A DNA stretch of 64,000 nt from a virus (IMGVR_UViG_3300047089_000152:32001-96000); one strand, 5' to 3'; counted from the first letter of the stretch, positions 369 through 58,509 are shown. Program-made: numbers and translations. The notes: generated by a model from the sequence alone, not told the origin.

Positions 369-1396
369 ATATCCCCTCGACCGCCGAACTTCTACTCCGC
401 GCCGACTGGGCGCGTCCCCGGTCTCGGCAGACAGCGCTGGGCATGTCCGACCTCGGTGGGTGTCGTCGCCGTGCCGGATATCAGCTGGCCGGTTACCAGC
501 CGGAGAAACCAAGCGGATCAATTCAAGCTGTCATTGGCACGGCAGTGCATGATGCCGTGGATGCCGCGCTGAAAAAGATGCGCGAAGACGGGATCATTCC
601 CGCCGACTCGGTCATCAACGAGGCCGTCTCGTTTGGTGGCGTCGTAGGGCACCCGGACCTTTATGTGGACGGGGTACTCAGGGATGTTAAAACTCTCGGG
701 TATGGGGCGCAGCTGGCGAACGCGAAGCTGTACGGTCCGAAGCGGCAGCATCTGTGGCAAGTCATGACGTACGCCGCAGCCTGTATCCTCGCGGACCGGC
801 CGGTGCGCACTGTCCAGATTGATTACCTTGTCAGGGATTCCGGTGAAAGCTGGATATGGGAAGGGCCGTTCGATTTCGGGCAGGTCCGCGAGGCGATGCA
901 GTGGCTGGAATCGGTGCGGGAAACGCCGCTGGAATTCCTCGCCAGGGATTACGCTCCAGATTCGGCGACATGCAAAGGCTGCCCGTTCTTCAACGCCTGC
1001 TGGGACGGCCACGTGGTCGACCGTGACGAACGATCCGTCCTGCTAGTCACCGATGACGACGCGGTGCAGTGGGCGCTGCGACTGGAAGTAGCCCGGGAAC
1101 GGATCAAGACGGCGAAAGAAGAAGAAGCCCTGTCGAAAGGCGCGCTCGACGGGCTACGCCCTAACGACAAGGGAAAGGCGGAAATAAAATTGACTGGCTA
1201 CCCGAAGACTCTGCGCTGGACAGTCACTACGCGGAAGAATCTGGACACCGAAGTAATAAAGCAAGATTATGCGAGGGGCGGCATTATGCCGCCCCTCGCA
1301 TCGAGCGAAAGCGTCCGGTTGGAGTTGCTCGCGCCGCGGGATGAGGATTTATCCTGCCTATCCAATCCCGGCCGCTCCATGCCAAGCCATGCCTAG
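365..1396 (+). CDS. Cas4-like / RecB-family PD-(D/E)XK exonuclease
   Basis: GTxxH, GHPD..DVKT, QxxxY motifs; Fe-S cysteines (GGCRR ... CKGCPFFNAC); GTG365 start. Confidence 0.85.
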   Translation: MNIPSTAELLLRADWARPRSRQTALGMSDLGGCRRRAGYQLAGYQPEKPSGSIQAVIGTAVHDAVDAALKKMREDGIIPADSVINEAVSFGGVVGHPDLYVDGVLRDVKTLGYGAQLANAKLYGPKRQHLWQVMTYAAACILADRPVRTVQIDYLVRDSGESWIWEGPFDFGQVREAMQWLESVRETPLEFLARDYAPDSATCKGCPFFNACWDGHVVDRDERSVLLVTDDDAVQWALRLEVARERIKTAKEEEALSKGALDGLRPNDKGKAEIKLTGYPKTLRWTVTTRKNLDTEVIKQDYARGGIMPPLASSESVRLELLAPRDEDLSCLSNPGRSMPSHA

Positions 1397-1413
1397 CCGC
1401 GCCTATCCCTTGC
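1351..1413 (-). ncRNA. satellite pentamer guide array S1 (11 pentamers + GGCA)
   Basis: minus strand GCAAG GGATA GGCGC GGCTA GGCAT GGCTT GGCAT GGAGC GGCCG GGATT GGATA GGCA; TATGAT -10 at 1426-1431(-). Confidence 0.7.
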
Positions 1414-1462
1414 TACGTTCATGGTATCATATAGGACGGGGAACGCACAAAAGGAGGTCGCT

Positions 1463-1690
1463 GTGGACGAGAGGGATGACTGGCTGGACCTGCCGCTGTC
1501 GGCTGAAGCGAAGCGGTTCATCGAGGCCACCCGGCAGGCCAGCATGACAGAACGCGAAACGATGATGGAATTCGCGGCCATCCTGTGCCGCTGCACTCCG
1601 TGGTATGACTACAGGAATCCGCGGGCTCCGCAAGAATCTTGCGTCGTGCATACAACAGTCATGTTTGACATGAAAGGCGGCTGGACGTGA
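1463..1690 (+). CDS. hypothetical protein
   Basis: AAGGAGG RBS before GTG1463. Confidence 0.6.
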   Translation: MDERDDWLDLPLSAEAKRFIEATRQASMTERETMMEFAAILCRCTPWYDYRNPRAPQESCVVHTTVMFDMKGGWT

Positions 1691-1800
1691 AATGCAGGCA
1701 CGAGAAGTGCGGCATCTGCGGGAAATGCTTCATCCGCAGGTGCCCCGCCCGGGGCTGCACGTGCAACGTGCCGTGGCCCGGAGGTACGTAACCTGCTTTC

Positions 1801-2139
1801 TCACGCGGGATTACCCCCGATCTTCGCCATGAATTCCTTGATGCCCCGGGCGGCCTTGTCTCGTCCCGACTCCGTGTCGAGGTCAGCGACGATGACACCC
1901 GTGGCGATCTTCCATATCCCCGGGGGGACGGGCGTGCCGGGCTGGACCAGGGCGAGTATCGGCTTATCCAGCATGATCGCCATGCCCAGCTCGACCGCGA
2001 ACTTGATGTCGACCTTCCCGGCTTCGGGGATCAGGGACATGACGTACGCGGATTCCTGCATCGCCTTGACGGTGTGCTCACGCTGGTGGGCGACGAATCT
2101 GTCCCATTCTGGGCCCTGCGCCCAGTCGCCGTCGTTCAT
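1801..2139 (-). CDS. hypothetical protein (possible nucleoside deoxyribosyltransferase-like fold)
   Basis: VELGMAIMLDKPI motif; GGAGG RBS. Confidence 0.5.
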   Translation of the reverse strand: MNDGDWAQGPEWDRFVAHQREHTVKAMQESAYVMSLIPEAGKVDIKFAVELGMAIMLDKPILALVQPGTPVPPGIWKIATGVIVADLDTESGRDKAARGIKEFMAKIGGNPA

Positions 2140-2155
2140 TGTTCCTCCGCTTGTT

Positions 2156-2497
2156 TCACCGTGTCAGGATTGAGACGGCCAGCGCGACCAGTACCAGGGT
2201 TACCGCCAGGGCGATGATGATGACAGCGAACGTCAGTGCGCGTGTCAGCGGGGGGGTGTCCGCGCTGGACCTCTTCCCGAGGATGGGCAGCCCCGACGCT
2301 GGCGTGGCGTTGGTGGCGACGGTCACGAAATCTTGCATTTCCTGTTCGGTCGGCGGGTCGTTGTTGAGCCGTTCCAGCGTGCGGACCACGGTGGGCTGGG
2401 ACACGCCGACCTCACTGGCGACCCGCCGGCCGGGCCATCCCAGGACCTTCGACAGAAGCCAGATGCGCATATCCACGGGGGAGGGCATCGTAGTCAT
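2156..2497 (-). CDS. HTH protein with C-terminal transmembrane helix
   Basis: RRVASEVGVSQPTVVR HTH; hydrophobic C-terminus. Confidence 0.6.
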   Translation of the reverse strand: MTTMPSPVDMRIWLLSKVLGWPGRRVASEVGVSQPTVVRTLERLNNDPPTEQEMQDFVTVATNATPASGLPILGKRSSADTPPLTRALTFAVIIIALAVTLVLVALAVSILTR

Positions 2498-3072: not shown

Positions 3073-3190
3073 CCTTAAATGGTACCAGGTTGGACGGGGA
3101 CGGTACACGGCACGGTTTCCCTACCCTAGGACAGCGTGATACAGTAGAGGTACAAGACGGTATCCGCTACCGAGGAAGAAACCAACCCAC

Positions 3191-3969: not shown

Positions 3970-3971
3970 CG

Positions 3972-4184
3972 TCAGCCGAACACGGCTGAGCGGGCGCGGA
4001 GAAACTTGCGGGCGCAGAGTACGGGGTCTTTACCGATGCGGGCGAAGCCGATCGCAAGGTCGGCGGCTTTCTGCGGTGCGACTCCTCCCGCAACGAGCAC
4101 ATCGTATGCTTCTTCGACGCCCGGGGCCGGGGTGAGTATTGTGATGCCGCTCACCCCGGCCACGAATATCCGCATCCCGTCCAT
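3972..4184 (-). CDS. hypothetical protein
   Basis: compact ORF in a minus-strand run. Confidence 0.45.
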   Translation of the reverse strand: MDGMRIFVAGVSGITILTPAPGVEEAYDVLVAGGVAPQKAADLAIGFARIGKDPVLCARKFLRARSAVFG

Positions 4185-4789: not shown

Positions 4790-4795
4790 TACGTT

Positions 4796-5589: not shown

Positions 5590-6233
5590 AGGCTGGTCCC
5601 TCCGGGCTCCGGGTGGTACGGCGTCACGTGCCTGGGGCATTTGCACACGCCGGGCCGGATACCCTCCATGATCTGCCGGACCCGTTCCCTGGTCACGTCG
5701 AAGACCCCGCCGATCTCGTCCAGGGTACACCCCGCGGCGCGCAGCTCCCTGATCACCCGTTCCCGCACGCACACCGGCGTGGTAGCCGGTTCATATTCCA
5801 CGTAAGCCTGCGTGATCAGCAACTTCTGACCCCGCCGTTTCTCCCGCAGCTCCGCGTTCCGCTGGGCCACCTCCGCGTCCCGGGCTGCCCGCAGCCCCTC
5901 GGCCATACCCGACGCCAGGTACCCGACACCCTCCTCGGTGATGAACCACCGGTAGGTGGGAACGTTGTTGTAGTACGGGGACGGTTCCTTACCCCCCCGA
6001 CGGGTGCGGCCACGGCCGGTCTGCCGTTCCAGGATCTGATTCGTCCACGTCAACCGGCGTTGCAGGTTCGACATCGACGGGGTCGTGACCTTCCCCTTGA
6101 CCGGTTTGAACGGCGGGTCGGGGATGGTGAACTGCCGGGCCATGTCACCAGCGAGAAGACCCTGTTCGCCTGCTTCCTTCAACAGTTCCAGGACGCGGCG
6201 GGGGTTGGGTGGGTTGTGCGTTGACTCTGACAT
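5586..6233 (-). CDS. DNA-binding protein with sigma-70 region 4-like HTH
   Basis: TLDEIGGVFDVTRERVRQI. Confidence 0.7.
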   Translation of the reverse strand: MSESTHNPPNPRRVLELLKEAGEQGLLAGDMARQFTIPDPPFKPVKGKVTTPSMSNLQRRLTWTNQILERQTGRGRTRRGGKEPSPYYNNVPTYRWFITEEGVGYLASGMAEGLRAARDAEVAQRNAELREKRRGQKLLITQAYVEYEPATTPVCVRERVIRELRAAGCTLDEIGGVFDVTRERVRQIMEGIRPGVCKCPRHVTPYHPEPGGTSL

Positions 6234-7119: not shown

Positions 7120-7143
7120 AGACGCCAGTGGTACACTAAAGGT

Positions 7144-11125: not shown

Positions 11126-11319
11126 GGCGGCCTAGGACGGAGCTGGAAGCGTACCGGTGTCCTGATTGCGGGTACACGGCGTTGATACAGCGGCTGGCTA
11201 GCCGGAGGAAGCTGACGGGGCATTTGAAGTGGTTGTGGTGTGTGCGGTGTGAGGTGCCCACGAATCATGTACTGGTCCCCTAGCCTGGACGGTTGTGGTA
11301 CGCTGTGGGTACAGCAAAC

Positions 11320-11453
11320 GGACCGGAAGGGAAAGGCTGGGCGCGGCAGGCATCGCAGCGGCCGGGATAGCAGCGGATCGGAGCGGCAGGACAGGATTGG
11401 CAGGGCACGGCTGGGCTAGGTGTGGCTGGGCTGGGAACGGAATGGATTGGACA
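11320..11453 (+). ncRNA. satellite guide array S2 (13 pentamers, GGCA, 13 pentamers)
   Basis: 5-nt periodic GG(C/A)NN; TGG-TACGCT -10 at 11296-11304. Confidence 0.75.
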
Positions 11454-11520: not shown

Positions 11521-12186
11521 ATGCCACCACGCAAGACCACCACAGGCGGACCAGTCCAGCTCACCAGGCTGGCAGAAGAAGTCGCCCAAATCCACATCGC
11601 CGGGGCTACGCCACTTATTATTCATAAATGGTCGGAAAAGGCGCTCAACCAGATGCGGATCGCCCAGTCCGGGGCAATTAAGCCGCCCCGCGAACCCAAG
11701 AACGCCGAAGAAAACGCCCACGCGGCAACATACTGGGTCGACGTCGCCGAGACGATCCCCGGCATCCCCAGCGTCTCATTCAAGGCCGCCATGGTCGGAG
11801 CCTGCCGGTTCTTCGACGGCCTCCCCATGACGACAGCAAAATTGCTGTTCTTCGTCGACGGGGTCGTCAGCGAAGCCAAGGGCGACGCGCCAGCACGCGA
11901 CCTGCTCGTCCCGATTATCTCCGGCCCTGGGGAAATGCGGGAAGACACCCCGCGCAACGACAACGGAAACCCGGACCTCCGGTACAGGAATCAGTTCTTC
12001 CCGTGGAAAGCCGTACTCAACGTGCGGTTCATGCCCGCGAAGATCGCCCCCGAATCCGTCATCGCGCTAGCTGACGCCGCCGGTCGTGGCGGTGTCGGAG
12101 AATGGCGTCCATCCGCACCGAAAAGCGCGACTGGCACATACGGCCAGTTTCGTGTCATCACCCGGAAGGAATGGGAGTCGGCCTAA
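11521..12186 (+). CDS. stand-alone Cas7/RAMP-like RNA-binding protein (Vipr-like effector)
   Basis: I.G.TPLIIH start, PGIPSVSFKAAM..AC, C-terminal Gly-rich loop GRGGVGEWRP...GTYGQFRV; flanked by guide arrays. Confidence 0.8.
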   Translation: MPPRKTTTGGPVQLTRLAEEVAQIHIAGATPLIIHKWSEKALNQMRIAQSGAIKPPREPKNAEENAHAATYWVDVAETIPGIPSVSFKAAMVGACRFFDGLPMTTAKLLFFVDGVVSEAKGDAPARDLLVPIISGPGEMREDTPRNDNGNPDLRYRNQFFPWKAVLNVRFMPAKIAPESVIALADAAGRGGVGEWRPSAPKSATGTYGQFRVITRKEWESA

Positions 12187-12187: not shown

Positions 12188-12745
12188 ATGGCGACCATCA
12201 CCGTCGAACAGCAGTGGGCGTTCAAATCGGGTGCGCGTGTCCCGGGTGGCGTCCACGCCGAGGATGTGGTGCGTGAGAAGGAACAGATGGAAGACCACCT
12301 GGGCCGCCTCGCCACCACGGAGGAAGCCGCGGAAATGGTCCTCCGCTGGCCTACCAAGTACAAGGCGCACCGGGCGTTCGCACCGGCAACCGAGAAAGAA
12401 GCACTCCACGAAGCAGTGGTACGCGGTGTTCGGAGCGCCTGGAGTTCCGTGATTCAGGTCGACGTCGAAATCACCGAGGTCACCAACCGGATTTCCGGTG
12501 ATATCGAGATCGCAACCAGGCGTGTCGACGCACCCGAAGTGAGATGGTTTCACGCCGTGCCAGCACGCGTCGGCGACACGCAACGAGTTTATGACTCGTT
12601 GCCGAATATCGCAGCCGATGCTGACAAGGAAGCGGCGCTGTCCGAAGATCTCGCCACGCAAGCACGCAACTTCTCCGCAAAAGTAGCCAGCGTCACTGGC
12701 GAGCTGGCGCGGTTGCACAAGTTGCGCAGCACCGCCGGAAATTAG
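12188..12745 (+). CDS. accessory protein of the RAMP/array locus, function unknown
   Basis: starts 2 nt after the RAMP stop, ends immediately before the array leader hairpin. Confidence 0.7.
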   Translation: MATITVEQQWAFKSGARVPGGVHAEDVVREKEQMEDHLGRLATTEEAAEMVLRWPTKYKAHRAFAPATEKEALHEAVVRGVRSAWSSVIQVDVEITEVTNRISGDIEIATRRVDAPEVRWFHAVPARVGDTQRVYDSLPNIAADADKEAALSEDLATQARNFSAKVASVTGELARLHKLRSTAGN

Positions 12746-12790
12746 ACCACCAGGTTCCGGCCGGGGAAACTCGGCCGGAACCTGGTCGGT
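12746..12790 (+). other. array leader hairpin with GAAA tetraloop
   Basis: ACCAGGTTCCGGCCG-GG-GAAA-CT-CGGCCGGAACCTGGT: 15 perfect pairs plus G.U and G-C. Confidence 0.85.
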
Positions 12791-12794: not shown

Positions 12795-14073
12795 GGAGTG
12801 GAGGGGCAGGGACTGTCGTGGCAAGGAACGGCAGGGCACGGAGTGGATTGGCAGGATAGGCTCGGCGCGGCCAGGCGGGGAGCGTTTCGGAGTGGCATGG
12901 ATTGGCTGGGACTGGCAGTATCGGATCGCAGTGGTCAGGGTAGGCAAGGCCCGGCCAGGCGGGGCTCGGTATGGCCTGCACTGGCGGGGAACGCAATGGA
13001 GTGGCAGGACCGGTGTGGAATGGCTGGGACGGGAACGGCGCGGTAGGGAATGGAGTGGCAGGAACGGTGGGGCCGGGCGCGGCGCGGCTAGGCTCGGCGC
13101 GGACGGGCATGGATTGGCTGGGCAGGACAGGATCGGAGAGCAGGGGGCTGGCGCGGCATGGCACGGAGAGGCAGGAGAGGAACGGTCGGGACAGGAGCGG
13201 CAAGGAGCGCACCGGCAGGCAGCGGCAGGGAATGGCATGGAACGGACTGGATTGGCAGGACAGGACCGGCATGGCCAGGAGGGGCATGTCCTGGAATGGA
13301 ATGGCAGGAATGGCTGGGTACGGCGGGGCCGGGCGAGCATTGGACAGGACCGGCAGTCGCGGAAGGGCTCGGCAGGGACCGGATTGCAGCGGCGAGGATG
13401 GGCTAGGCAGGAGCGGAACGGCAGGGCATGGCCTGGATCGGAGCGGCTGGGCAGGATAGGCATGGATCGGCCTGGGTAGGCAAGGAGGGGCTGGGACGGG
13501 ACCGGATTGGCAGGGCAGCAGTGGAGAGGCAAGCCGTGCAATGGCGGGGCGGGGCGTGGCATGGACTGGACCGGCAGGACTGGACTGGACTGGATTGGAG
13601 AGCAGGGCAGTGGCAGGGATCGTAGGGGTTCGGACGGGCAGGTTAGGCTTGGACGGGCTAGGCGTGGCATGGGCCGGCAAGGAACGGCTCGGAGCGGCAG
13701 GGATTGGCACGGCTCGGAGTGGCAGGACCGGACGGGTACGACGTGGCGTGGCTGGCATTGGCAAGGACTGGCAGGAGTGGATTGGCAGGGCCGGGCTTGG
13801 CATGGCGTGGCTGGGAATGGCGTGGCAGGACAGGTGGGGCTTGGCGGGCCGGGGATCGGCACGGATGGGCATGGCATGGCCCGGTAGGGCATGGCAGCAT
13901 TGGACTGGACCGGACCGGCAAGGCTTGGCTTGGCTGGGATCGGATGGGAACGGCAGGAGCGGAGCGGACTGTCGTGGCATGGCATGGCCTGGCGTGGCGC
14001 GGATCGGACGGGCAGGATAGGTCGGGCGTGGAATGGAACGGACGGGCTGGGCATGGAACGGCAGGATAGGAGT
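12795..14073 (+). ncRNA. main guide array: 237 GG(C/A)-NN pentamers in 21 GGCA-delimited segments
   Basis: 237x5 + 21x4 = 1269 nt accounts exactly for 12795-14063, then GGATA GGAGT; segments of 8-17 pentamers. Confidence 0.85.
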
Positions 14074-14279
14074 GACCCGCAGGGCTACTGTCGGGGTGGG
14101 CCGCGTGCCCCGGCAGAAGTTCGGCGGTGGATGATCTTGTGCTCGTGCGGCCATCCTGCGGTCGAGCATGACCTGAACCGTTCGGAGACTAAGCGAACAG
14201 TTTGCCTGACCACCGAACGGACTACGAAATGTCCGTGCGTGCTATATTCACCAGACCTTCGTGATACACTAGAGGTACA

Positions 14280-15149
14280 ATGAACGAGACCATAGAACGA
14301 GAAGACCGCAGGGCCGTCACCGCGCTCACCTCCGGGGAAAACGCCACGAAGGTCACCGTCAAAACAAGCGACGGCAACTACGAAGAACGACAGCTAACCG
14401 TCCACGGGCTCGCACGGCTGATTCCCGTGATCGCACTGGGCGACATGGACCGGCTGATAGACGACGTGCGCGAACACGGCGTCCTCGAACCCCTGATCAT
14501 GTTCCAGGGACAAGTCCTTGACGGACGCAACCGGCTCGCCGTAGCTTCGGTCGTCGGCGTACCCGTGCAGCTCACCGAATTCGACGGAGACGAAGCCGCA
14601 GCCAGAAACTTCGTCTGGTCCGCGAACGCTGCGAGGCGGCACCTGTCCGTCCCCCAGATCGCGCTGGCCGCTGAACGGTTCGGTTTCGTCGACGCCGCCA
14701 AAGCCGAAGCAGGCCCCGACGACCCCAACCTGGATATCCGCTCGACGGTCGCACCATGGGCGCGAATCGCCGCGCGAAAGGTCGGTGCGATCACCCCGGC
14801 TACACTGGAACGGTTCCAGCAAGCCAGGATCCCCGAGGCACCCGACACGATGCGCCGGGTCGATTCCGGTGAGATCCGCCGGGTCGACGTCGCGGTCAAG
14901 GAAGCGGTCGCGGAGCGGACCGTGCTCACCGGCCGTCTCATCCAGGTTCCACCCCCGGTTGCGCGTACCGCGTGGGACCGGCTGGGCTGCGCGCGGGGTG
15001 ACGTTCTCGCCGCGGAACGCGCCATCCTGGCAGGGGACTGGGGTGGGATGGAAAGGGACCAGTTCGCTGTCCGCGCCCGTGAAATCCAGGGAGCCCTGAT
15101 CAGGATTCAGAATTTGTATCGTTATGGATCGGGCGGCAGGACCGGTTAG
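14280..15149 (+). CDS. ParB N-terminal domain protein
   Basis: L..DVREHGVLEPL...GQVLDGRNRL...SANAARRHLS. Confidence 0.8.
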   Translation: MNETIEREDRRAVTALTSGENATKVTVKTSDGNYEERQLTVHGLARLIPVIALGDMDRLIDDVREHGVLEPLIMFQGQVLDGRNRLAVASVVGVPVQLTEFDGDEAAARNFVWSANAARRHLSVPQIALAAERFGFVDAAKAEAGPDDPNLDIRSTVAPWARIAARKVGAITPATLERFQQARIPEAPDTMRRVDSGEIRRVDVAVKEAVAERTVLTGRLIQVPPPVARTAWDRLGCARGDVLAAERAILAGDWGGMERDQFAVRAREIQGALIRIQNLYRYGSGGRTG

Positions 15150-15207
15150 GACGGGCTAGGAATGGCTGGGCTGGGCATGGACTGGAATGGCAGGAATGGA
15201 ATGGCTA
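15135..15207 (+). ncRNA. satellite guide array S3
   Basis: GGCA + 10 pentamers (15139-15188) + GGCA + 3 pentamers; overlaps the ParB stop and the next ATG. Confidence 0.8.
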
Positions 15208-30708: not shown

Positions 30709-30748
30709 GGAAGCATCATCCTGTCCTAAGTGTGGTAGGATAGTAATT

Positions 30749-30864
30749 GCATTGGAGGGGCATGGCATGGCACGGCCCGGAGTGCTGGGGTGGGGAACGG
30801 AATGGATGGGCAGGATAGATCCAGGTTGGTGCGCATCTTTTACAGGTGCGCACCAACCTGGATC
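30749..30864 (+). ncRNA. satellite guide array S4 plus 18-bp hairpin
   Basis: 12 pentamers 30749-30808, GGCA, GGATA; TGG-TAGGAT -10 at 30733-30741; inverted repeat 30818-30835/30847-30864. Confidence 0.8.
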
Positions 30865-31250
30865 AGAAATGAGCATCCCATGTATTGCTGGCCGGCGTAT
30901 TCGGTGAGTCCGTAGGTCATCACCTGCAATACGACCGTGAACTCCACCGCCCCGCCCAGGGTCGGGTCAGCCTGCACCGCCGCGTTGATGCTTTTAGTAC
31001 CGGACGTGGACACGTAGTCGTCGATTACGTCCTGGCCGGAAGCGTCGTTCGCGGCGGATACCAGCACGACGGCGAGGAGATTGACCTGGGTTTCGCCGTC
31101 CATCGTGATGCCGTAATTGACCGCTGGCCGGTTCGGGATTATGACCGCGCATGGCGGTATGACCTGCCCGGGTGCGATCGCGTGTACGTTCAGCCCGGTG
31201 GTGGATAGCCGGGTTGCGAGCGCGACCCTGATCGCTTTGACGTTAGCCAT
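30840..31250 (-). CDS. tail terminator / completion protein
   Basis: SI.AA..ADPTLGG motif; position. Confidence 0.7.
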   Translation of the reverse strand: MANVKAIRVALATRLSTTGLNVHAIAPGQVIPPCAVIIPNRPAVNYGITMDGETQVNLLAVVLVSAANDASGQDVIDDYVSTSGTKSINAAVQADPTLGGAVEFTVVLQVMTYGLTEYAGQQYMGCSFLIQVGAHL

Positions 31251-32279: not shown

Positions 32280-33989
32280 TCAGGTCACTGATCCTGTTCC
32301 GGTATTCCCGGTCACCTTCGTCGTGCCATCTCTCGGGTCGCTGACCCCGCTGACGCCCGCCTTTCCGGTGACACTGCCCGCACCAGAATTACCGGTGACG
32401 GTGCCCGCACCGGTCTGACCGGTCACCGTTACTGTCACCTCGGCGCTTACCAGCAGCGGAGGCGGTATGAAAACGTACGTCCCGGCTCGCCATTCCGCCC
32501 GCCCTGTGAGGACCGGTTTCTGCGGCTGCGCGCGGAGCGCGTGACCGAGTGGCCTGACGGGTGGCCCGGTCTGCGCGTACGGGCCACGCTGCGAACCGAC
32601 ACGACCCCGGGTGGGTGGCGGCGGCTGCCTGCGGTAGATCCCCACAGGACCGGACTGCGGTTTGACCGGTGGCCCGGCTTGCGCATAGGTTCCTGCGGCG
32701 CGGATTACCCGTCCGCCTGCTGTCGGGAACCTGCGGGCTACGACCGGATGCCCAAGCGGGTATATCGGGGGCCCGGCTTGTGCTGAGATCGCGGTGAACG
32801 TCCCGGCCCGGCTGGATACCCGACCGTGCGGTAGTAGCGGCTGCCTGGCCTGGACCGGACCCGTAGCGGGCTTGACCGGTGGCCCGGCCTGCGCGAAGGT
32901 TCCGCGCCGTGTGGAGGTGACACCGCCACGGGTCGGGAACCGTCGTGCCTGAACCGGGTGACCCAGCGGGTAGACGGGTGGCCCGGCACCGATGATGACC
33001 AGGGTGAACGTGCCTGCACGGCTGGTGGTGCTGCCACCGCGTCGTGCTGCTGGCTGCGCCCGCACCGGACCCGTAGCCGGTTTGACGGGTGGGCCGAGCT
33101 GAGCGTATGTTCCGTGCTGGGATGCGACCCTGCCCCGGACGGGCAGCGGTGGCTGCCTGCGTCCCAGGCCGACAGGCCCAGATGCGGGTTTTACCGGTGC
33201 ACCCAGCTGCGCGTAGACGCCAGCCCGGGTGCTGGTACTACCACCACGTACCGGGAACCTGCGCGCCGCAACAGGATGACCCAGCGGATAGACCGGAGGG
33301 CCGAAACCGGTGACGACCGTGGTGAACGTGCCGGCCCGGTTAGCTACCCGGCCGACACGCTGTGCCGCTGGTTGCGCGCGGACTGGCCCGGTAGCGGGTT
33401 TAATCTGCGCACCTAGCTGCGCGTAAACACCAGCGCGGCTGCTGGTGCGGCCACGTGGCGGAAGCCCGCGTAGCTGTGTTGCGACCGGGGCAACCAGTCG
33501 CCGTACAGGTGCGCCGAGTTGGGCGTAGACCCCGGCGCGGTTCTTGACGCGGCCGGTCAGGAACGGGACAGCGGGTTGCGCCTTGACGGGGCCGCGTAGC
33601 TGCCTTACTGGGGCACCCAGCTGGGCGTAAACCCCGGCCCGGCTGGTGGTGCTGCCACCGCGGGCCGGGAGCCTGCGTGCCTGTACCGGCCTCCCGGTCG
33701 GATAGACCGGTGGGCCCGCCTGCGCTGCTGTAGCGGTGAACGTCCCGTCGCGGGACAGTACCCTGCCACCGGCCTGCGCGCCCGGCTGAGCCTTTACTGG
33801 TGCGCGCAGGACCCGTACTGGTGCGCCCAGCTGGGCGTAGACACCGGCACGGTTCGCGACCCTGCCGCCACGGGCGGGTAGCTGTACTGGTGCGCGGACC
33901 GGCTTATGGAGAGCGCTTGCGGGTGCGCCGGGTGGCTGCGCCCGGATCAGTACCGGCTGGATTGGCTGGCCGCGCCCGAGGATAGCCAT
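32280..33989 (-). CDS. repeat-rich putative virion protein
   Basis: recurring RAG(V/T)YAQLG(A/P)PV and GPPVYPLGHPV units. Confidence 0.65.
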   Translation of the reverse strand: MAILGRGQPIQPVLIRAQPPGAPASALHKPVRAPVQLPARGGRVANRAGVYAQLGAPVRVLRAPVKAQPGAQAGGRVLSRDGTFTATAAQAGPPVYPTGRPVQARRLPARGGSTTSRAGVYAQLGAPVRQLRGPVKAQPAVPFLTGRVKNRAGVYAQLGAPVRRLVAPVATQLRGLPPRGRTSSRAGVYAQLGAQIKPATGPVRAQPAAQRVGRVANRAGTFTTVVTGFGPPVYPLGHPVAARRFPVRGGSTSTRAGVYAQLGAPVKPASGPVGLGRRQPPLPVRGRVASQHGTYAQLGPPVKPATGPVRAQPAARRGGSTTSRAGTFTLVIIGAGPPVYPLGHPVQARRFPTRGGVTSTRRGTFAQAGPPVKPATGPVQARQPLLPHGRVSSRAGTFTAISAQAGPPIYPLGHPVVARRFPTAGGRVIRAAGTYAQAGPPVKPQSGPVGIYRRQPPPPTRGRVGSQRGPYAQTGPPVRPLGHALRAQPQKPVLTGRAEWRAGTYVFIPPPLLVSAEVTVTVTGQTGAGTVTGNSGAGSVTGKAGVSGVSDPRDGTTKVTGNTGTGSVT

Positions 33990-47257: not shown

Positions 47258-47501
47258 GCCGCCCATGACCTCCGGTCGTGCCGGGCTACAGCGGGACCGC
47301 GCCCACCGGGACACGCACCGCGTGCACATGACGGTCGGGTCGTACGGGTCCAGTCGCGTCCATGCGCCACACCAGAAACAGTACCCCACGGCATAAGCCC
47401 TCCACGGACAGGCTGCCGGGGTCTAGGACAGCGGTTATGTATAACCCTGACCGTCGTTAGCATCATAGCGTCCCATGTGGTACGCTTAGAGTCCGAGCCG
47501 A

Positions 47502-47610
47502 GGCAGGATGGGATTGGCATGGCGCGGCAAGGTAGGGCTCGGATCGGCAAGGAATGGATAGGAACGGCAGGAGTGGCAGGGTGCGGTCCTCTCGTATCGG
47601 GAGGACCGCA
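47502..47610 (+). ncRNA. satellite guide array S5 plus hairpin
   Basis: GGCA, 12 pentamers 47506-47565, GGCA, 2 pentamers; TGG-TACGCT -10 at 47478-47486; hairpin 47582-47610. Confidence 0.85.
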
Positions 47611-47627
47611 TCTCCATTTTCCAACCG

Positions 47628-48911
47628 TCATCCTGCCGCCATATGTGAGTCGAAGAAATTATCCTTCGGGCCGATATGGGAACGGAACTTGTACTTACGG
47701 ATCAATTCCTCGCGGATTCCCACGAGGTCTTCTGAACTGAGTTCCGCCGTGCGGACCACGGAATCGGTACCCATGTTCTTTTGCCCGTAGGCGCCAAGTC
47801 CTTCTCCAGTAAATATCAGGTCGGTAGCTATTCCCTCGTCCATTTCCCGCCTGAATTCTGTGCCGCGATAAGGATAATAGATAGCAATCTGCGCATCATC
47901 TATCCCTGACGTGCAGATGAACCGTTCAGTCTCCGCGATCGTAGCGCGTGTCTCGCCGGGTAGCCCGATCATCACGAATGCTTTCACGGTGATGCCCGCA
48001 TCCTTGCAGTACCGGACACAATCGTAATTCTGCGTGGCGGTTGTCTTCTTATCCATCCGGTCTAGCATCTGCTGCGACCCGGATTCCGCACCAAACGCCA
48101 CCTCGACACACCCCGCATCGGCTAGCGCCGCGGCGAACTCCGCGGTCATGAATTTCGCGTGCACATTGCAGCGAAATCTTAGCCCGGAGCGCTTGAGTAG
48201 GTCCAGGTACGGCTGGCACTTCCCCAAATTAATTGCAAAAAGATCATCATACAAATACACGCCCTCATACCCGAGCGTCACGATGTCGTCCAGTTCGGCC
48301 TCGGCGTTGCCCAGCGAAGTCCACCTGGTCAGCGTCCGCGCGTCTTCACAGAACTTGCACGCCATCGGACAGCCCCGGCCGAGCATCATCGTGGTCGAGT
48401 TCAGCCCGGCCAGGGTGTACGAGTAGTTTTTCAGGAACCCAGGCTCACCCAGCCGGTCCGGGCGGGGCATCGCCGCTAGTTCCTGCCGGGGGATCTGGTC
48501 GTTGCTCATGACAGGAACCGTTTTGTTCTGCACGATGCCTGGCAGTGCCCGCTCCCCGTCGCCTGCCACCAGGTAGTCCCACAGCCCGGCCTGGTCGTCT
48601 GCGTTCATCTCCCGGCCGTAATGCCGGACGTGCGGGCCGCCTGCCACCAGAACTTTGGACGGCCAGCGGCTCCTGATCGCGCGGGCTATCCGGTTAGCCT
48701 CGGCGCGCTGCGGTGTCATCACCGAGACGCCTACTATGTCAGCGTCCGCGAACTGGTCCAGATCCTCGACGTCGTATTCGTCTACGACGCTGATCTTAGT
48801 ACCGGGGGCCTGCGCGGCCACCGCGGATTTCAGGTACAGCAGGCCGAGGGGCGGGTAGATACGGTCGTCGTCCAGGAACGGGGACCGGCAGGAAACCAGG
48901 GACAGTTTCAT
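47628..48911 (-). CDS. B12-binding radical SAM enzyme
   Basis: PPLGLLYL..GGPH; RGCPMACKFC; GAESGSQ; IGLPGET. Confidence 0.9.
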   Translation of the reverse strand: MKLSLVSCRSPFLDDDRIYPPLGLLYLKSAVAAQAPGTKISVVDEYDVEDLDQFADADIVGVSVMTPQRAEANRIARAIRSRWPSKVLVAGGPHVRHYGREMNADDQAGLWDYLVAGDGERALPGIVQNKTVPVMSNDQIPRQELAAMPRPDRLGEPGFLKNYSYTLAGLNSTTMMLGRGCPMACKFCEDARTLTRWTSLGNAEAELDDIVTLGYEGVYLYDDLFAINLGKCQPYLDLLKRSGLRFRCNVHAKFMTAEFAAALADAGCVEVAFGAESGSQQMLDRMDKKTTATQNYDCVRYCKDAGITVKAFVMIGLPGETRATIAETERFICTSGIDDAQIAIYYPYRGTEFRREMDEGIATDLIFTGEGLGAYGQKNMGTDSVVRTAELSSEDLVGIREELIRKYKFRSHIGPKDNFFDSHMAAG

Positions 48912-53166: not shown

Positions 53167-53172
53167 GGCCGG

Positions 53173-54168: not shown

Positions 54169-54199
54169 GTCTCCTGTCCTTCTCTTTGTACTACGCCGG

Positions 54200-54556
54200 T
54201 CAGGATTTCCTGGCGGGCCGGGCCTTATTCATAGATTTCGCGGGCTTTTTAGCCGCGGGCTTAGCCGCAGCAGGCTTCGCTTCGGCAGCAGGCTTCGCGG
54301 TCTTCGCGGCAGCTGAATCGCCCTTACCCTGCGAGGATGGCAACTCCGGGTATTTCCGACGGACCGCTGCCTGAACTTTTGCCTTCTCCGCAGGCGTCCC
54401 ATTCGCCGCAACTCGTGACAGGGCGTTAGCGCCCCGTGCCTTAGAGTTAATAGGGTATGCGTCAGCACCACCAGGACCACCACCAGGCAGCGCATACGAC
54501 CCAGCCGGCGCGGCAGTATTAGGCGCAGGCTTACCGGTCTTCTTCCTCGGTGGCAT
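54200..54556 (-). CDS. small basic head-region protein
   Basis: YPI..ARGANALSRV...V.RKYP plus Lys/Ala tail; GGGAG RBS. Confidence 0.7.
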   Translation of the reverse strand: MPPRKKTGKPAPNTAAPAGSYALPGGGPGGADAYPINSKARGANALSRVAANGTPAEKAKVQAAVRRKYPELPSSQGKGDSAAAKTAKPAAEAKPAAAKPAAKKPAKSMNKARPARKS

Positions 54557-54575
54557 ATAATCTCCCTTAGTGCCA

Positions 54576-54685
54576 GGTATGGAGGGGTGCGGCTTGGCGT
54601 GGCTTGGCGGGGCGCGGCGGGGATTGCATTGGATTGGATTGGCAGGAACGTCACTGACCTGCACCTACGCGGTGCAGGTCAGTGA
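54576..54685 (+). ncRNA. satellite guide array S6 plus 15-bp hairpin
   Basis: 13 pentamers 54576-54640, GGCA, GGAAC; TATAAT at 54556-54561; inverted repeat 54651-54665/54671-54685. Confidence 0.85.
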
Positions 54686-56314: not shown

Positions 56315-56371
56315 CAGATCACCCCCCTTCTTTATCTTGCGTTCCCTGCTAGATACCCTTATTATTGATTC

Positions 56372-57067
56372 ATGTCACGAACAGCGATAGACCTCACTGG
56401 GCAACGCTTCGGGCGTCTGACCGTACTGATACGCGACCGCACACGCCGAGGAGCTACATACTGGCGCTGCCTCTGTGATTGCGGCAACGAAAAGACCGTC
56501 GCTAGTGCTTCGCTACGCCGTAGCGCCACGACAAGCTGCGGCTGCGCCCACCGCGAGATGCTGATAGCGCGCAACACCGGGCGCTGGCCCGAGCCGTTCT
56601 CAGTCCCTGGATCGCCATCCGCGCCGAAACCAGGATCAGGGCCGAAACCAAGCGTGCTGCATAAACCGACGTACCACTCCTGGTACGGCGCGGTCCGTCG
56701 ATGCACCAGACATGACGACCCTGGATGGCCACGATACGGAGGTCGCGGTATCACGGTCTGCGAACGCTGGCTCGATTACAAAAACTTCCTGGCCGATATG
56801 GGCGAGAGGCCCCCCGACAGGACACTCGACCGGATCAACAACGACGGGGACTACGAGCCAGGCAACTGCCGCTGGGCCACGATCCAGCAGCAGTCCCGCA
56901 ACACAAGCACCTTCAAGCTGACCCCTGCCAAGATCAGAGAGATACTGGACCTTAGCAAGGCAGGTCTGGGTCCGGGGCAGATCGCCATACAGACGGACAT
57001 CAGCTACAGGAATACGCGACTCGTCATCTCGATCGCGGAGGTTGTACGGGCGGCCTTGGTCGCGTAG
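56372..57067 (+). mobile_element. free-standing HNH homing-type endonuclease, antisense in the late operon
   Basis: DLTGQRFGRLTV..W.C.CDCG; YGGRGITVCERW..F.ADMGERP..TLDRINNDGDYEPGNCRWAT. Confidence 0.85.
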
Positions 57068-57270
57068 TATGTCCGTGCCGGGTTACCTCACGGAAGTCAC
57101 GGTAGCCCGGCTCAGGCCCCCGCCTGTATGGGTACACGCGTATCCCGAAGCTTTTAAACGGAGGGAACGGGCGTGGTCCGCCGTCACACGCGGAGGGGGC
57201 ACAAAGCTTTAACGCGGGTCCCAGTGCTCGTAGTATCCGCGTGACTGGTCGGCTAGCGTGCAGGTCATGG

Positions 57271-57510
57271 TCAGCCCCGTTCTGGTTGCGGTGCGGGTGT
57301 GACGGTCACGTGCGCGCCGACACGGTAGCCGTACCGGACGGCGAGGCAGCAGAACACTACGCTGCGCCACAGCGAACCCGTCAGCCAGCCGATCGCGAAG
57401 AAAAACGCCGTGACCAGCGTGATGATCATCACGCCCGCGCGGACCTGGCTGGCGTGTTCAGCTATCTGCTCGACGGGTACGGCTGATAGTGGCCGGGTCG
57501 CGGTTGCCAT
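57271..57510 (-). CDS. small membrane protein
   Basis: two hydrophobic segments; AVR.GY motif. Confidence 0.6.
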   Translation of the reverse strand: MATATRPLSAVPVEQIAEHASQVRAGVMIITLVTAFFFAIGWLTGSLWRSVVFCCLAVRYGYRVGAHVTVTPAPQPERG

Positions 57511-57517
57511 GTTCCTC

Positions 57518-58417
57518 CTACAATCCCTTGTCGGTCATCCACGTCTGCGCGGCCTTGGCTACCTTCGCGTTTCCGCCGATGTGGTGGAGCTGCACCCACG
57601 GGTGGAGCAGCGTGGCGAACGCGACGTCGTCGGTGTTGTGACCCGGGACAGGCACCGGGGGTACCGGGACAGGGACGGGTGCGGGGGCGGTCAACGGCAG
57701 GGACACGGTCGCGTCACCCTGTTCGGCTAGCAGCCGTTCCAGTGTCGCGTAGGAGTAGCAGAATGAGCCGTCGACACCGAACCCTGTGCCCCACGAATTG
57801 TCCAGGAACAGGATCTTCTTGTCGACGTCCTTGCCGCGGCACAGATATTCGTGGCCACCCCGGATCTGCGCGCCAGGGCTGACGGCTACGAGGCCGCTGC
57901 TATCGGGTCGGTCCATCGAGTCATACCAATTCGACCCGATGCCTACCGGGCCTGCTTCCAGCGCGTCGAGGACGTCTGCGAGGGAGAAGCAGTGCAGGTA
58001 CCCCGAAATCCAGCCCATGTTCTTCGCGACCTGCGCCGCCGACGGCCCCGACGAACCATTGTCGTTGGGAGGGTAGGGACCATCCCCGTCGATGGTCTCA
58101 GCCCCACTGTAGATCCGCAGCGCCAGCGGCTCATCCAGAGGGATGTGACCGGCTGGTAGCGCGTCGAACAGGGGTCCCGTGCCGAGCGCACCAACCTGCT
58201 CGTTTCCGGTGCAGGACCCGACGTTGCCCTGATCCAGGATGGGGATCTGCCGGGGCCACAGCTGGGTCGTTAGCCCCGCCGCGGTCCGCTGCCACGGATA
58301 TGCGCGGTTCCGCTCGTCATGATACAGATTCCGCCCCAAGGGCAGGGGGTTCTCGGCTGATGCAGCCTGCCAAGGGATGCGGGCACGCTGGGTGGACCAT
58401 GCGGTCACTACAACCAT
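57518..58417 (-). CDS. papain-like (C1) cysteine peptidase
   Basis: LDQGNVGSCTGN, GGHE, NSWG. Confidence 0.85.
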   Translation of the reverse strand: MVVVTAWSTQRARIPWQAASAENPLPLGRNLYHDERNRAYPWQRTAAGLTTQLWPRQIPILDQGNVGSCTGNEQVGALGTGPLFDALPAGHIPLDEPLALRIYSGAETIDGDGPYPPNDNGSSGPSAAQVAKNMGWISGYLHCFSLADVLDALEAGPVGIGSNWYDSMDRPDSSGLVAVSPGAQIRGGHEYLCRGKDVDKKILFLDNSWGTGFGVDGSFCYSYATLERLLAEQGDATVSLPLTAPAPVPVPVPPVPVPGHNTDDVAFATLLHPWVQLHHIGGNAKVAKAAQTWMTDKGL

Positions 58418-58453
58418 GAGTCTCCTACGTGGTACACTGTAGGTACAGAAAGG

Positions 58454-58509
58454 GGATAGGAGCGGCAGGGCTTGGCCTGGAGAGGATCGGCTGGGATTGG
58501 ATTGGCAGG
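58454..58509 (+). ncRNA. satellite guide array S7
   Basis: 10 pentamers 58454-58503, GGCA GG; TGG-TACACT-GTAGGTAC promoter 58430-58446. Confidence 0.8.

What the first reader, a model, noticed from the sequence alone, without database searches (positions are those of the whole stretch)
1351..58509. Dispersed self-contained guide cassettes sit beside the genes whose alleles they recognise: possible RNA-guided marker exclusion or gene drive
Seen: seven satellites at gene junctions. Six have an adjacent -10 box, three end in strong hairpins, and four lie antisense within the late operon. Five match a gene within about 0.01-0.7 kb, never perfectly. Knowledge: free-standing phage homing endonucleases likewise attack the neighbouring gene of relatives while their own allele is resistant. 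Inference: each guide plus its linked resistant allele forms a heritable unit that silences a co-infecting relative's copy, using one shared RAMP effector. The alternative is partial self-repression to time late genes. I do not know of this layout being described.
Basis: inference. Interest (0 to 1): 0.9.

Follow-up and report, generated by a model that had tools for sequence, protein, structure and literature searches.

The report
Solo VIPR guide RNAs beside near-targets
Seven small stand-alone guide-RNA genes of a phage RNA-guided gene-silencing system first described in 2026 (VIPR) are scattered through this phage genome. Four of them lie next to one of the phage's own genes that they almost match, which looks like a weapon against related phages kept beside the allele that escapes it.

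Summary
The 104-kb phage contig carries a 21-unit array and seven dispersed tracts of GGNNN pentamers; order-1 Markov simulations give about zero.

The system is already published as VIPR (three 2026 bioRxiv preprints). It has a Vipr RAMP protein (11521-12186), an accessory gene, and vrRNAs of GG[C/A]NN pentamers. The NN dinucleotides read double-stranded DNA while skipping every third (wobble) base.

The dispersed tracts are solo vrRNA genes:
- Six have their own extended -10 promoter.
- Four end in very strong hairpins.
- Four are antisense inside the structural-gene operon.

The best match in the whole genome under the skip rule lies within 1 kb, in frame, in the neighbouring gene:
- S3: 20/22 nt
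- S5: 20/26 nt
- S4: 17/24 nt
- S6: 19/28 nt

For S3 and S5, natural homologues carry alleles that fit the guide better than the phage's own allele, up to 11/11 codons. The own allele differs by nonsynonymous changes in two adjacent codons.

That favours a linked "guide plus insensitive allele" arrangement aimed at relatives. It does not prove it. Self-regulation remains a serious rival, and no nuclease or gene-drive step is supported.

Verdict: a known system in a layout that the three VIPR papers I read do not describe.

The parts
11521..12186 (+). vipr gene: 221-aa RAMP (Cas7/Csm3-like) effector
   Evidence: A profile of 37 homologues hits PDB 36pp_D 'SUSP1 Vipr protein' at E=3.9e-6. The AF2 model (pLDDT 85.9) gives Foldseek hits to Csm3/Cmr/type VII Cas7 at E about 1e-5. 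It has 607 homologues, none with a Pfam domain. About 50 of 79 IMG/VR pentamer-tract loci encode a homologue within the same locus, in most cases within 1 kb of the tracts.
12188..12745 (+). vipr-accessory (vap-like) gene, 185 aa, function unknown
   Evidence: Start codon follows the vipr stop after one base. No Pfam or PHROG family. 19 distant homologues. AF2 pLDDT 94, with a helical N-terminal part, a small beta domain and a long C-terminal helix. No fold match beyond generic coiled coils and no nuclease fold recognised.
12745..12787 (+). GAAA-loop hairpin between the accessory gene and the array
   Evidence: Perfect inverted repeat read directly in the sequence.
12795..14068 (+). main staggered vrRNA array: 21 units of 8-17 GG[A/C]NN pentamers, each closed by a GGCA tetramer (1-nt register shift)
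   Evidence: Viterbi parse. Composition: G 100%, G 90%, A/C 92%, N, N. No unit matches the own genome except A19, 8/11 far away. Shares no guides with the array of the 93%-identical Vipr relative L091.
14088..14116 (+). hairpin closing the array
   Evidence: Fold of 14065-14140, z=-3.2; coordinates.
1354..1408 (-). S1 solo vrRNA (11 pentamers). Promoter-like box at 1414-1429(-), terminator hairpin at 1270-1300(-)
   Evidence: hairpin z=-5.1. No self match.
11320..11453 (+). S2, a two-unit mini-array upstream of vipr, with an exact phage promoter motif at 11296-11311
   Evidence: No self match. In relative L091 a much larger array occupies this position.
15139..15193 (+). S3 solo vrRNA (11 pentamers), no promoter of its own, GGCA on both sides, embedded between the ParB-like gene and the next gene
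   Evidence: L091 has only a 3-pentamer remnant at the same junction.
15096..15127 (+). S3 near-target: last conserved codons (LIRIQNLYRYG) of the ParB-like gene 14280-15149, 11 nt from S3
   Evidence: 9/11 dinucleotides, 20/22 nt, in frame; unique best hit in the genome. Homologues with LIRIQQIYRYG are 11/11 compatible.
30754..30813 (+). S4 solo vrRNA (12 pentamers). Extended -10 at 30731-30741, 21-bp hairpin at 30818-30864
   Evidence: z=-9.3.
31135..31169 (+). S4 weak near-target inside the tail terminator gene 30840-31250(-)
   Evidence: 7/12 dinucleotides, 17/24 nt, in frame, tied genome maximum, P=0.023. Gene is PHROG tail terminator. Relatives also score 7/12.
47506..47570 (+). S5 solo vrRNA (13 pentamers). 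Extended -10 at 47476-47486, hairpin plus T-run at 47579-47611. Sits in a 238-nt gap, where in relative L080 the homologous downstream gene overlaps the end of the radical SAM gene
   Evidence: z=-6.1.
48226..48263 (+). S5 near-target: motif VYLYDDLFAIN of the B12-binding radical SAM gene 47628-48911(-)
   Evidence: 9/13 dinucleotides (9/11 core; 20/26 nt), in frame, unique genome maximum. Six vipr-less relatives score 10/13. The own protein is the only one of 120 homologues with Y at motif position 4.
54576..54645 (+). S6 solo vrRNA (14 pentamers). TATAAT at 54556-54561 overlapping the start codon of the divergent gene, hairpin at 54649-54685
   Evidence: z=-4.8.
54504..54544 (+). S6 near-target: codons 5-18 of the small head-region gene 54229-54556(-). 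The site also covers the -35 region of S6's own promoter
   Evidence: 9/14 dinucleotides, 19/28 nt, in frame, P=0.023. Part of the match comes from the recurrent 3' GGATT pentamers.
58454..58508 (+). S7 solo vrRNA (11 pentamers) between the peptidase and terminase genes, with an exact phage promoter motif at 58430-58445 and no hairpin
   Evidence: No self match.

Best explanation
The seven satellites are solo vrRNA genes of a VIPR system. Each is transcribed on its own; S3 is instead processed from the operon transcript. Each yields a 55-70-nt RNA of GG[A/C]NN pentamers. By analogy with the solved SUSP1 system, Vipr protomers encoded at 11521-12186 polymerise along the RNA, hide each GGN triplet and present the NN pairs. 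The filament binds double-stranded DNA that carries the complementary dinucleotides with one base skipped between them, and it blocks transcription.

Four satellites (S3, S4, S5, S6) are tuned to conserved codon blocks of the gene next door. The most likely purpose is to silence the homologous genes of related phages sharing the host. These genes are a ParB-like protein, the tail terminator, a radical SAM enzyme and a head-region protein. The carrier's own allele is changed at amino-acid-determining positions in two adjacent codons. Guide and insensitive allele lie within 1 kb, so recombination between relatives rarely separates them.

Shown here: the identity of the system, the cassette anatomy, the in-frame near-matches and the allele distributions. 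Inferred: RNA expression, DNA binding, that the own-allele mismatches spare self, and the competitive benefit.
For: System identity:
- Vipr profile hit to PDB 36pp_D.
- RAMP fold.
- Pentamer grammar and 1-nt-overlapping staggered array, as in fig. S18 of bioRxiv 10.64898/2026.04.26.720920.
- A Vipr homologue lies in about 50 of 79 IMG/VR pentamer-tract loci, mostly within 1 kb of the tracts.

Cassette anatomy:
- Promoter motif shared with vipr.
- Terminator hairpins.
- S5 sits in a 238-nt gap; in relative L080 the homologous flanking genes overlap with no gap.

Code and proximity:
- Only target period 3 gives hits.
- The best hit in the genome lies within 1 kb for 4 of 8 units.
- All four hits are in frame with the wobble base skipped.

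Allele direction:
- S5 reads V-Y-[I/M]-[F/L]-D-D-L-F-A-[I/M]-[N/K].
- At motif position 4, 108 of 120 homologues have F and only the own protein has Y.
- 73 of 120 homologues are 10/11 compatible and one is 11/11.
- Six IMG/VR relatives are 10/13 at DNA level, against 9/13 for the own gene. They carry no tract within 4 kb, and no vipr was found in the five records searched (G002 is 97% complete).
- S3 reads L-I-[S/R]-I-Q-[Q/H]-[I/M]-Y-R-Y-G.
- Five of 72 homologues carry LIRIQQIYRYG (11/11) and ten are 10/11; the own allele is 9/11.
- At all four own mismatches the guide specifies a residue that occurs naturally at that position in homologues. In both genes the two mismatches fall in adjacent codons.

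Literature: solo vrRNAs that match non-self better than self are reported for VIPR-null phages (10.64898/2026.10.15.759431).
Against: - Self identity is still high: S3 is 0.91 and the S5 core is 0.91. Both exceed the 0.8 threshold that the VIPR papers use to call targets.
- None of the three papers reports mismatch tolerance, so self may well be bound.
- The self versus non-self margin for S5 is a single nucleotide (21/22 against 20/22).
- L091, the closest relative, has a decayed S3 and an allele that matches worse (7/11) than the carrier's.
- S4 matches relatives no better than self.
- S6 owes part of its score to recurrent 3' GGATT pentamers.
- No perfect DNA target was found in IMG/VR for S5, S3, S7 or S1.
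- The protein-level '11/11' is an upper bound, because the Leu and Arg codon families are ambiguous.
- The layout rests on one genome. Ten other VIPR genomes mostly keep their vrRNAs at the vipr locus.
Confidence: 0.45

Rival explanations
1. Self-regulation. The near-matches are the real targets. The solo vrRNAs guide Vipr to the phage's own genes to delay or dampen expression, and the imperfect pairing sets the strength. S3 and S6 would also repress their own synthesis, because their sites overlap their own expression signals.
For: S3 is 20/22 to self, above the published 0.8 calling threshold. The S3 site lies 11 nt upstream of S3 on the transcript that must carry it. The S6 site covers the -35 region of S6's own promoter and the first codons of a head-operon gene. 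The satellites use the same promoter class as vipr and early + strand genes, so they would be made before late genes. The S3 and S5 self sites have unusually AT-rich wobble bases, the 4th lowest of 279 windows and the 11th lowest of 415, which would ease DNA opening.
Against: A regulator would be expected to match its target fully. At every mismatch the guide instead agrees with alleles seen in relatives, and the own gene is the derived state (F to Y, unique among 120). Published surveys found no self-targeting vrRNAs at >=80% match. S4 and S6 match weakly (0.68-0.71).
Confidence: 0.25
2. Evolutionary residue. The guides once matched this lineage's ancestral alleles, or were carried in by recombination together with the neighbouring gene segment. 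The present near-matches have no function of their own, and the satellites now serve other, unknown targets or are decaying.
For: S3 is older than the split from L091 and has decayed there to three pentamers. S4 and S6 are weak matches. S1, S2 and S7 have no self match and no known target. Array content turns over completely between close relatives.
Against: Intact promoters and very strong terminators are kept at S1 and S4-S6. Register and GG scaffold are intact in all seven. Four of eight units having their genome-wide best hit within 1 kb needs an explanation beyond drift.
Confidence: 0.15
3. True RNA-guided homing or gene drive. The Vipr complex recruits a nuclease that cuts the sensitive allele of a co-infecting relative, and repair copies the satellite plus resistant allele into it.
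For: The element sits next to its target, as with free-standing homing endonucleases (established knowledge). Some VIPR types carry nuclease accessory genes. S5 sits in a gap that is absent in relative L080, where the homologous flanking genes overlap, so it looks like an insertion.
Against: The accessory protein here shows no nuclease fold or motif. Characterised phage-borne VIPRs silence rather than cut. No relative carrying a freshly converted junction was found.
Confidence: 0.05

Closest known systems
VIPR systems (Viral Interference Programmable Repeat), e.g. Escherichia phage SUSP1 type II (bioRxiv 10.64898/2026.04.26.720920 and 10.64898/2026.04.26.720927)
   Same: A Vipr RAMP protein plus one accessory gene, flanked by vrRNAs of 8-17 GGNNN pentamers. 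NN reads DNA with one base skipped, and the skipped base falls on the wobble position. The system is phage-borne. A staggered array with 1-nt overlaps is mentioned in fig. S18.
   Different: Position 3 is A or C (48% / 44%) rather than a pyrimidine. There is no conserved pseudoknot tail; units are closed by GGCA and the solo genes by plain hairpins. The accessory protein has no recognisable WH, HTH or nuclease fold. The host is probably an actinobacterium, judged from 64% GC and from Vipr homologues in Mycobacterium and Gordonia phages; the host was not identified. None of the three papers mentions such phages in the text I could search.
Solo / orphan vrRNAs of F5 satellites and VIPR-null SUSP1-like phages (bioRxiv 10.64898/2026.10.15.759431)
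   Same: Stand-alone vrRNA genes away from a full array. Self-match scores are lower than non-self scores, which was interpreted as avoiding autoimmunity. Wobble-aligned footprints in conserved coding sequence.
   Different: Those solos sit in the former vipr locus of phages that lost vipr, or in satellites, and they target vipr, other vrRNAs, satellites or host REP elements. Here a vipr-positive phage carries seven solos spread over 57 kb. Four lie inside the structural operon, and four of the seven have their best match in the gene next door.
Free-standing phage homing endonucleases and marker exclusion (T-even phage seg/mob genes; from established knowledge, not tested here)
   Same: A selfish element sits next to a gene whose allele in relatives is sensitive while the carrier's allele is not. 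Linkage of weapon and immunity.
   Different: No nuclease and no evidence of cleavage or gene conversion. Recognition is by RNA guide, and the expected effect is transcriptional silencing.
Class 1 CRISPR-Cas (Cas7 backbone with crRNA) and phage-borne mini-arrays
   Same: A RAMP filament on a guide RNA with periodic flipped bases. Hypervariable guide content. Use in conflicts between mobile elements.
   Different: No repeat-spacer structure and no cas1/cas2. The guide has a 5-nt period with only 2 informative bases per unit, against a 3-nt period on the target.

Membership tests
VIPR system | Vipr protein: minimal RAMP with RRM core, G-loop and thumb, homologous to SUSP1 Vipr | tested here: met
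   The profile of 37 homologues hits PDB 36pp_D 'SUSP1 Vipr protein' at E=3.9e-6, covering only the C-terminal G-loop region (GVGDWRP). The AF2 model gives Foldseek hits to Csm3/Cmr4/type VII Cas7 at E 8e-6 to 1e-4.
VIPR system | vrRNAs of about 9-16 tandem pentamers with an invariant GGY scaffold and hypervariable NN | tested here: met
   29 units of 8-17 pentamers. Position 1 is G in 100%, position 2 is G in 90%, positions 4-5 are near-uniform. Position 3 is A/C rather than C/T, one of the 'related consensus' variants allowed by the paper.
VIPR system | Minimal locus: vipr plus one accessory gene flanked by vrRNA-coding intergenic DNA | tested here: met
   S2, then vipr, then the 185-aa gene, then the 21-unit array. 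The same order is seen in most of the IMG/VR loci that hold a Vipr homologue.
VIPR system | Targets obey the 1-nt skip rule, with the skip base at the wobble position | tested here: met
   Only period 3 gives above-null matches. All four near-targets are in frame with the third codon base skipped.
VIPR system | vrRNAs are expressed, processed and bound by Vipr; the complex binds dsDNA and represses transcription | not testable with these tools
VIPR type II (SUSP1 clade) | Conserved 3' tail with pseudoknot after the repeat tract; vap1 DNA-binding accessory protein | tested here: not met
   Units end in GGCA with a 1-nt overlap and no shared tail. The sequences after the solos differ from one another: unrelated hairpins or none. 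The accessory protein has no WH or HTH match. This is therefore another VIPR type; which of types I-VII could not be determined.
Homing-endonuclease-like marker exclusion / gene drive | A nuclease that cuts the sensitive allele | tested here: inconclusive
   No nuclease family or fold was recognised in the 185-aa accessory protein. A missing fold match does not exclude one.
Homing-endonuclease-like marker exclusion / gene drive | Element adjacent to its target gene; carrier allele less sensitive than alleles of relatives | tested here: inconclusive
   Adjacency is met for four satellites. Allele direction is met for S5 and S3 at protein level. It is not met for S4 and is the opposite for S3 in L091.
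Homing-endonuclease-like marker exclusion / gene drive | Unidirectional gene conversion in mixed infection | not testable with these tools
   Needs crosses.
CRISPR array | Identical direct repeats separated by unique spacers; cas1/cas2 adaptation genes | tested here: not met
   No repeat-spacer structure; the only punctuation is GGCA. No cas1 or cas2 was found among the ORFs scanned.

The most novel reading that the evidence does not exclude
Solo vrRNA plus the insensitive allele next door form a selfish, recombination-proof 'guide-immunity' cassette. In mixed infection the cassette silences the relative's copy of an essential or late gene. Only genomes or recombinants that carry both parts produce progeny, so the cassette and its flanking markers spread. 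This would be RNA-guided marker exclusion without a nuclease. Wobble-blind recognition forces the immune allele to change amino acids, which would explain the unique F-to-Y and QI-to-NL changes.
Probability: 0.3. Interest if true: 0.8.

Novelty: new variant of a known kind. Interest (0 to 1): 0.6.

Why it matters
VIPR was described only in 2026, and its natural roles are known for one E. coli phage-satellite pair. This genome shows a vipr-positive phage, probably of actinobacteria, that has spread single guides through its own structural operon. Each sits beside a gene that it nearly recognises.

If the guides hit relatives and spare self, this would be a weapon-plus-immunity linkage for an RNA-guided silencer, which the three VIPR papers I read do not describe. 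It would also give a natural read-out of how many NN mismatches protect a target. If they act on self, it would be the first case of a phage using VIPR to regulate its own genes.

Either outcome is directly testable with the published GFP-repression assay. The result also shows that many well-studied Mycobacterium and Gordonia phages carry unannotated VIPR loci.

Tried and rejected
Early ideas, dropped once the VIPR match appeared:
- Binding sites for a TRAP-like 11-mer RNA-binding ring
- Two-tetrad G-quadruplexes
- C-rich rut sites on the antisense strand
- A protein-coding repeat, excluded because unit lengths differ by 5 nt, not 3

Searches for perfect targets:
- Exact gapped patterns for the S5 core (11 NN), S3, S7 and S1 (10 NN each) in IMG/VR gave 0 hits.
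- The S3 pattern in 596 Gb of prokaryote genomes gave one hit (L132). It contains a stop codon, is not a ParB homologue, and about one hit is expected by chance.

Guides against other DNA:
- All 29 guides against three vipr-less relatives (342 kb) gave only S5, plus A04 at 8/10, which is not robust.
- All 29 guides against 98 loci, mostly VIPR loci (774 kb), gave only S5.

Relatives:
- For S3, IMG/VR holds only distant ParB homologues.
- For S6, there is no homologue in the five related records.

Generality:
- Ten other VIPR genomes mostly keep their tracts at the vipr locus.
- G014 and G009 each show one weak in-frame adjacent match (9/17 and 7/13), too weak to count.

Accessory protein: Pfam, PHROGs, ESM Atlas, Foldseek-PDB and VIA-wide gave no informative match.

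Tools unavailable:
- Complex prediction was not used; Vipr-Vap binding is not claimed.

Full report
**What is in the sequence**

The window is bases 32001-96000 of a single 104,150-bp viral contig with 63.6% GC. It has no close relative among 50,697 deposited phages.

A scan for GG dinucleotides recurring every 5 nt found a 1.27-kb block at 12795-14068 and seven shorter tracts:
- S1 1354-1408 (- strand)
- S2 11320-11453 (two units)
- S3 15139-15193
- S4 30754-30813
- S5 47506-47570
- S6 54576-54645
- S7 58454-58508

Nothing else of this kind occurs in the genome. Twenty order-1 Markov simulations gave zero such tracts in 19 runs and one in the other.

A dynamic-programming parse shows the block is 21 units of 8-17 pentamers. 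Each unit is closed by a GGCA tetramer, so the register slips by one base per unit. Pentamer position 1 is always G, position 2 is G in 90%, position 3 is A or C in 92%, and positions 4-5 are close to random.

**What the system is**

The gene just upstream of the block (11521-12186, 221 aa) has no Pfam domain and belongs to PHROG 4652, of unknown function. It has 607 homologues in metagenomes. These include proteins annotated as hypothetical in 27 Mycobacterium phage and 5 Gordonia phage records.

A strict pentamer pattern pulled 79 loci from IMG/VR, spanning 38-70% GC. About 50 of them encode a homologue of this protein, in most cases within 1 kb of the tracts and on the same strand. Protein and tract therefore form one system.

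A profile of 37 homologues hits one PDB entry, 36pp chain D, named 'SUSP1 Vipr protein' (E=3.9e-6). The AlphaFold model (pLDDT 85.9) matches Csm3, Cmr and type VII Cas7 subunits.

The literature search then showed that this is VIPR, described in three 2026 preprints from one laboratory:
- 10.64898/2026.04.26.720920: discovery, GGY/NN vrRNAs, the 1-nt skip rule, silencing of rival elements
- 10.64898/2026.04.26.720927: cryo-EM structures showing a helical Vipr filament and a triplex R-loop
- 10.64898/2026.10.15.759431: solo vrRNAs in satellites and in phages that lost vipr

. The first paper also mentions 'staggered arrays' whose vrRNAs overlap by 1 nt. That is the grammar of the block here.

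**Anatomy of the satellites**

A 16-nt motif, TGNTACNNTNNRGGTA, occurs nine times exactly, always on the + strand; 14 matches are found with one mismatch allowed, against 0.6 expected. It precedes vipr, the ParB-like gene, other + strand genes, S2 and S7. S1 has it with one mismatch. S4 and S5 have TGTGGTAGGAT and TGTGGTACGCT, and S6 has TATAAT.

S3 has none. It is bounded by GGCA on both sides like an array unit, so it is probably cut out of the operon transcript.

RNA folds of the 67-84 nt after each tract give hairpins far stronger than shuffles for S1, S4, S5 and S6 (z -5.1, -9.3, -6.1, -4.8). That is four, not three.

S4-S7 lie on the + strand between - strand genes for the tail terminator, radical SAM enzyme, portal, peptidase and terminase. 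S5 occupies a 238-nt gap. In relative L080 the homologous downstream gene overlaps the end of the radical SAM gene, so S5 looks like an inserted cassette.

**Test of the near-self matches**

I took positions 4-5 of every pentamer in order and slid them along both strands of the whole genome with one base skipped between dinucleotides.

| Satellite | Best hit (window coordinates) | Dinucleotides | Nucleotides | Distance |
|---|---|---|---|---|
| S3 | 15096-15127 | 9/11 | 20/22 | 11 nt |
| S5 | 48226-48263 | 9/13 | 20/26 | 0.7 kb |
| S6 | 54504-54544 | 9/14 | 19/28 | 32 nt |
| S4 | 31135-31169 | 7/12 | 17/24 | 0.35 kb |

In each case this is the best hit in the genome. Shuffled guides never reached the S3 or S5 scores in 200 trials. 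No other 2-kb window of the genome reaches the S3 or S5 score (P<=0.0025 each). S4 and S6 tie with a few other windows (P=0.023 each). The Fisher combination is 7e-4.

Target periods 2, 4 and 6 give nothing. All four hits are in the reading frame of the neighbouring gene with the skipped base at the wobble position.

S1, S2 and S7 have no match above background. Among the 21 array units only A19 stands out, at 8/11 some 40 kb away. I can therefore confirm four near-matches, not five.

**Do relatives carry better-matching alleles?**

S5. Read as codon prefixes, S5 specifies V-Y-[I/M]-[F/L]-D-D-L-F-A-[I/M]-[N/K]. The phage's own radical SAM gene reads VYLYDDLFAIN.
- Among 120 homologues, motif position 4 is F in 108, P in 11 and Y only in this phage.
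- 73 homologues are compatible at 10 of 11 codons and one (P0201) at 11.
- Six IMG/VR relatives (75-78% protein identity) score 10/13 at DNA level, against 9/13 for the own gene, despite many wobble differences. None has a tract within 4 kb. In the five records searched, one of them 97% complete, I found no vipr.

S3. It specifies L-I-[S/R]-I-Q-[Q/H]-[I/M]-Y-R-Y-G. The own ParB-like gene ends LIRIQNLYRYG.
- Five of 72 homologues carry LIRIQQIYRYG, fully compatible.
- Ten are compatible at 10 of 11 codons.

In both genes the own mismatches are single-nucleotide, nonsynonymous changes in two adjacent codons. In all four cases the guide specifies a residue that exists at that position in relatives.

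**Counter-evidence**
- Self identity stays high, at 0.91 for S3 and for the S5 core. That is above the 0.8 the VIPR papers use to call a target. None of the three papers reports how many mismatches abolish binding.
- For S5 the self versus non-self difference is one nucleotide.
- The closest relative I could fetch is L091, with Vipr 93% identical. At the S3 junction it has only a three-pentamer remnant, and its allele (LIRIQSLYRFG) matches S3 at 7/11, worse than the carrier's.
- S4 matches the homologous site of four relatives no better than self.
- Part of the S6 score comes from the recurrent GGATT pentamers at vrRNA 3' ends.
- No perfect DNA target exists in IMG/VR for S5, S3, S7 or S1. The single hit in prokaryote genomes is a chance hit.

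**Silencing or cutting?**

The 185-aa gene after vipr has 19 distant homologues and a confident model (pLDDT 94). It has no family or fold match beyond a C-terminal coiled coil, and nothing resembling a nuclease. Characterised phage-borne VIPRs repress transcription, and nuclease accessory genes are reported only for defence-island types. 'Marker exclusion' by silencing is therefore plausible. 'Gene drive' by cleavage and repair has no support here.

**Rival reading**

The self sites may be the real targets.
- S3's site lies 11 nt upstream of S3 on the transcript that must carry it.
- S6's site covers the -35 region of its own promoter and the first codons of a head-operon gene.
- The S3 and S5 self sites have unusually AT-rich wobble positions.

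These features would fit negative feedback and timing of late genes. Against this, a regulator has no reason to disagree with its target exactly where relatives agree with the guide.

**How general is the layout?**

In ten other VIPR genomes the tracts cluster at the vipr locus. Two genomes have some dispersed units, and each shows one weak, in-frame, adjacent match (9/17 at 352 nt; 7/13 at 29 nt). These are suggestive only.

The array of L091 shares no guide with the array here, so guide content turns over quickly.

**Verdict**

The system is VIPR and already known, and solo vrRNAs that spare self are also known. The three VIPR papers I read do not describe a vipr-positive phage with solo guides dispersed through its genome, each beside an own gene it nearly recognises. 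The first paper reports no self hits at >=80% in its sets.

I rate it a new variant of a known kind. The linked weapon-and-immunity reading is the most likely (0.45), self-regulation comes second (0.25), and homing by cleavage is unlikely (0.05).

Noticed in passing
window 12795-14068: None of the 21 array guides matches the own genome, three vipr-less relatives or 98 loci (mostly VIPR loci) above background, so their targets are unknown. The array of the 93%-identical-Vipr relative L091 shares no guide with it, so turnover has been complete.
   Followed up: partly
phage records NC_023580 (Saal gp51), NC_051664 (Gorge gp54), MN586001 (Donkeykong), KU963251 (UmaThurman) and others; loci L016, L047, L059, L064: 27 Mycobacterium phage and 5 Gordonia phage records encode a Vipr homologue (38-47% identity) annotated as hypothetical. 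In the four Mycobacterium phage genomes present as IMG/VR loci, a pentamer array lies just upstream of it. The terms 'Mycobacter' and 'Actino' do not occur in the first VIPR paper. These cultivable phages and hosts would be convenient test systems.
   Followed up: partly
window 3137, 7129, 8158, 11296, 11468, 14262, 58430, 60401 (+ strand): A 16-nt promoter-like motif, TGNTACNNTNNRGGTA, occurs nine times exactly, all on the + strand. At 14262 it ends 3 nt before the ATG, which suggests a leaderless mRNA. It probably defines the early or middle promoter class of this phage.
   Followed up: partly
window 15096-15127 and 48226-48263: The S3 and S5 self sites have unusually AT-rich third codon positions (5/11 and 4/13 GC, against a gene-wide GC3 of 0.75), while relatives use GC-rich wobble bases at the same S5 codons. 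The meaning is unknown: easier DNA opening, or recent change.
   Followed up: partly
genome C1:2861-2893 (outside the window, 29 kb upstream): Array unit A19 (window 13897-13955) matches a 72-codon open frame at 8/11 dinucleotides, in frame. No shuffle of 100 reached this score. It may be a fifth self near-match, but it is not adjacent.
   Followed up: partly
L091:8440-8500 (Ga0307473_10000550): At the junction homologous to S3, the close relative has only GGACC GGCTA GGAAC GGCA. This is a three-pentamer remnant that keeps the first pentamer of the 11-pentamer S3 and one internal pentamer (GGCTA).
   Followed up: yes
window 1354-1396 and 15139-15149: The open frames of the upstream genes (the PD-(D/E)XK exonuclease and the ParB-like gene) run into the S1 and S3 tracts and stop inside them. 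The cassettes therefore replaced or extended the native 3' ends of these genes.
   Followed up: no
window 32280-33989 (-): A 569-aa ORF at 69% GC with internal direct repeats of 102, 108 and 210 nt (families D7-D9 and D12), lying between the head-tail adaptor and further head-side genes. It is probably a repeat-domain structural protein.
   Followed up: no
G014:C1:5657-5741 / 6092-6142 and G009:C1:128913-128977 / 128846-128884: In two unrelated VIPR genomes, one vrRNA unit each has its genome-wide best skip-rule match in frame in an open frame 352 nt and 29 nt away (9/17 and 7/13). This is a weak hint that adjacent near-self matches recur.
   Followed up: partly
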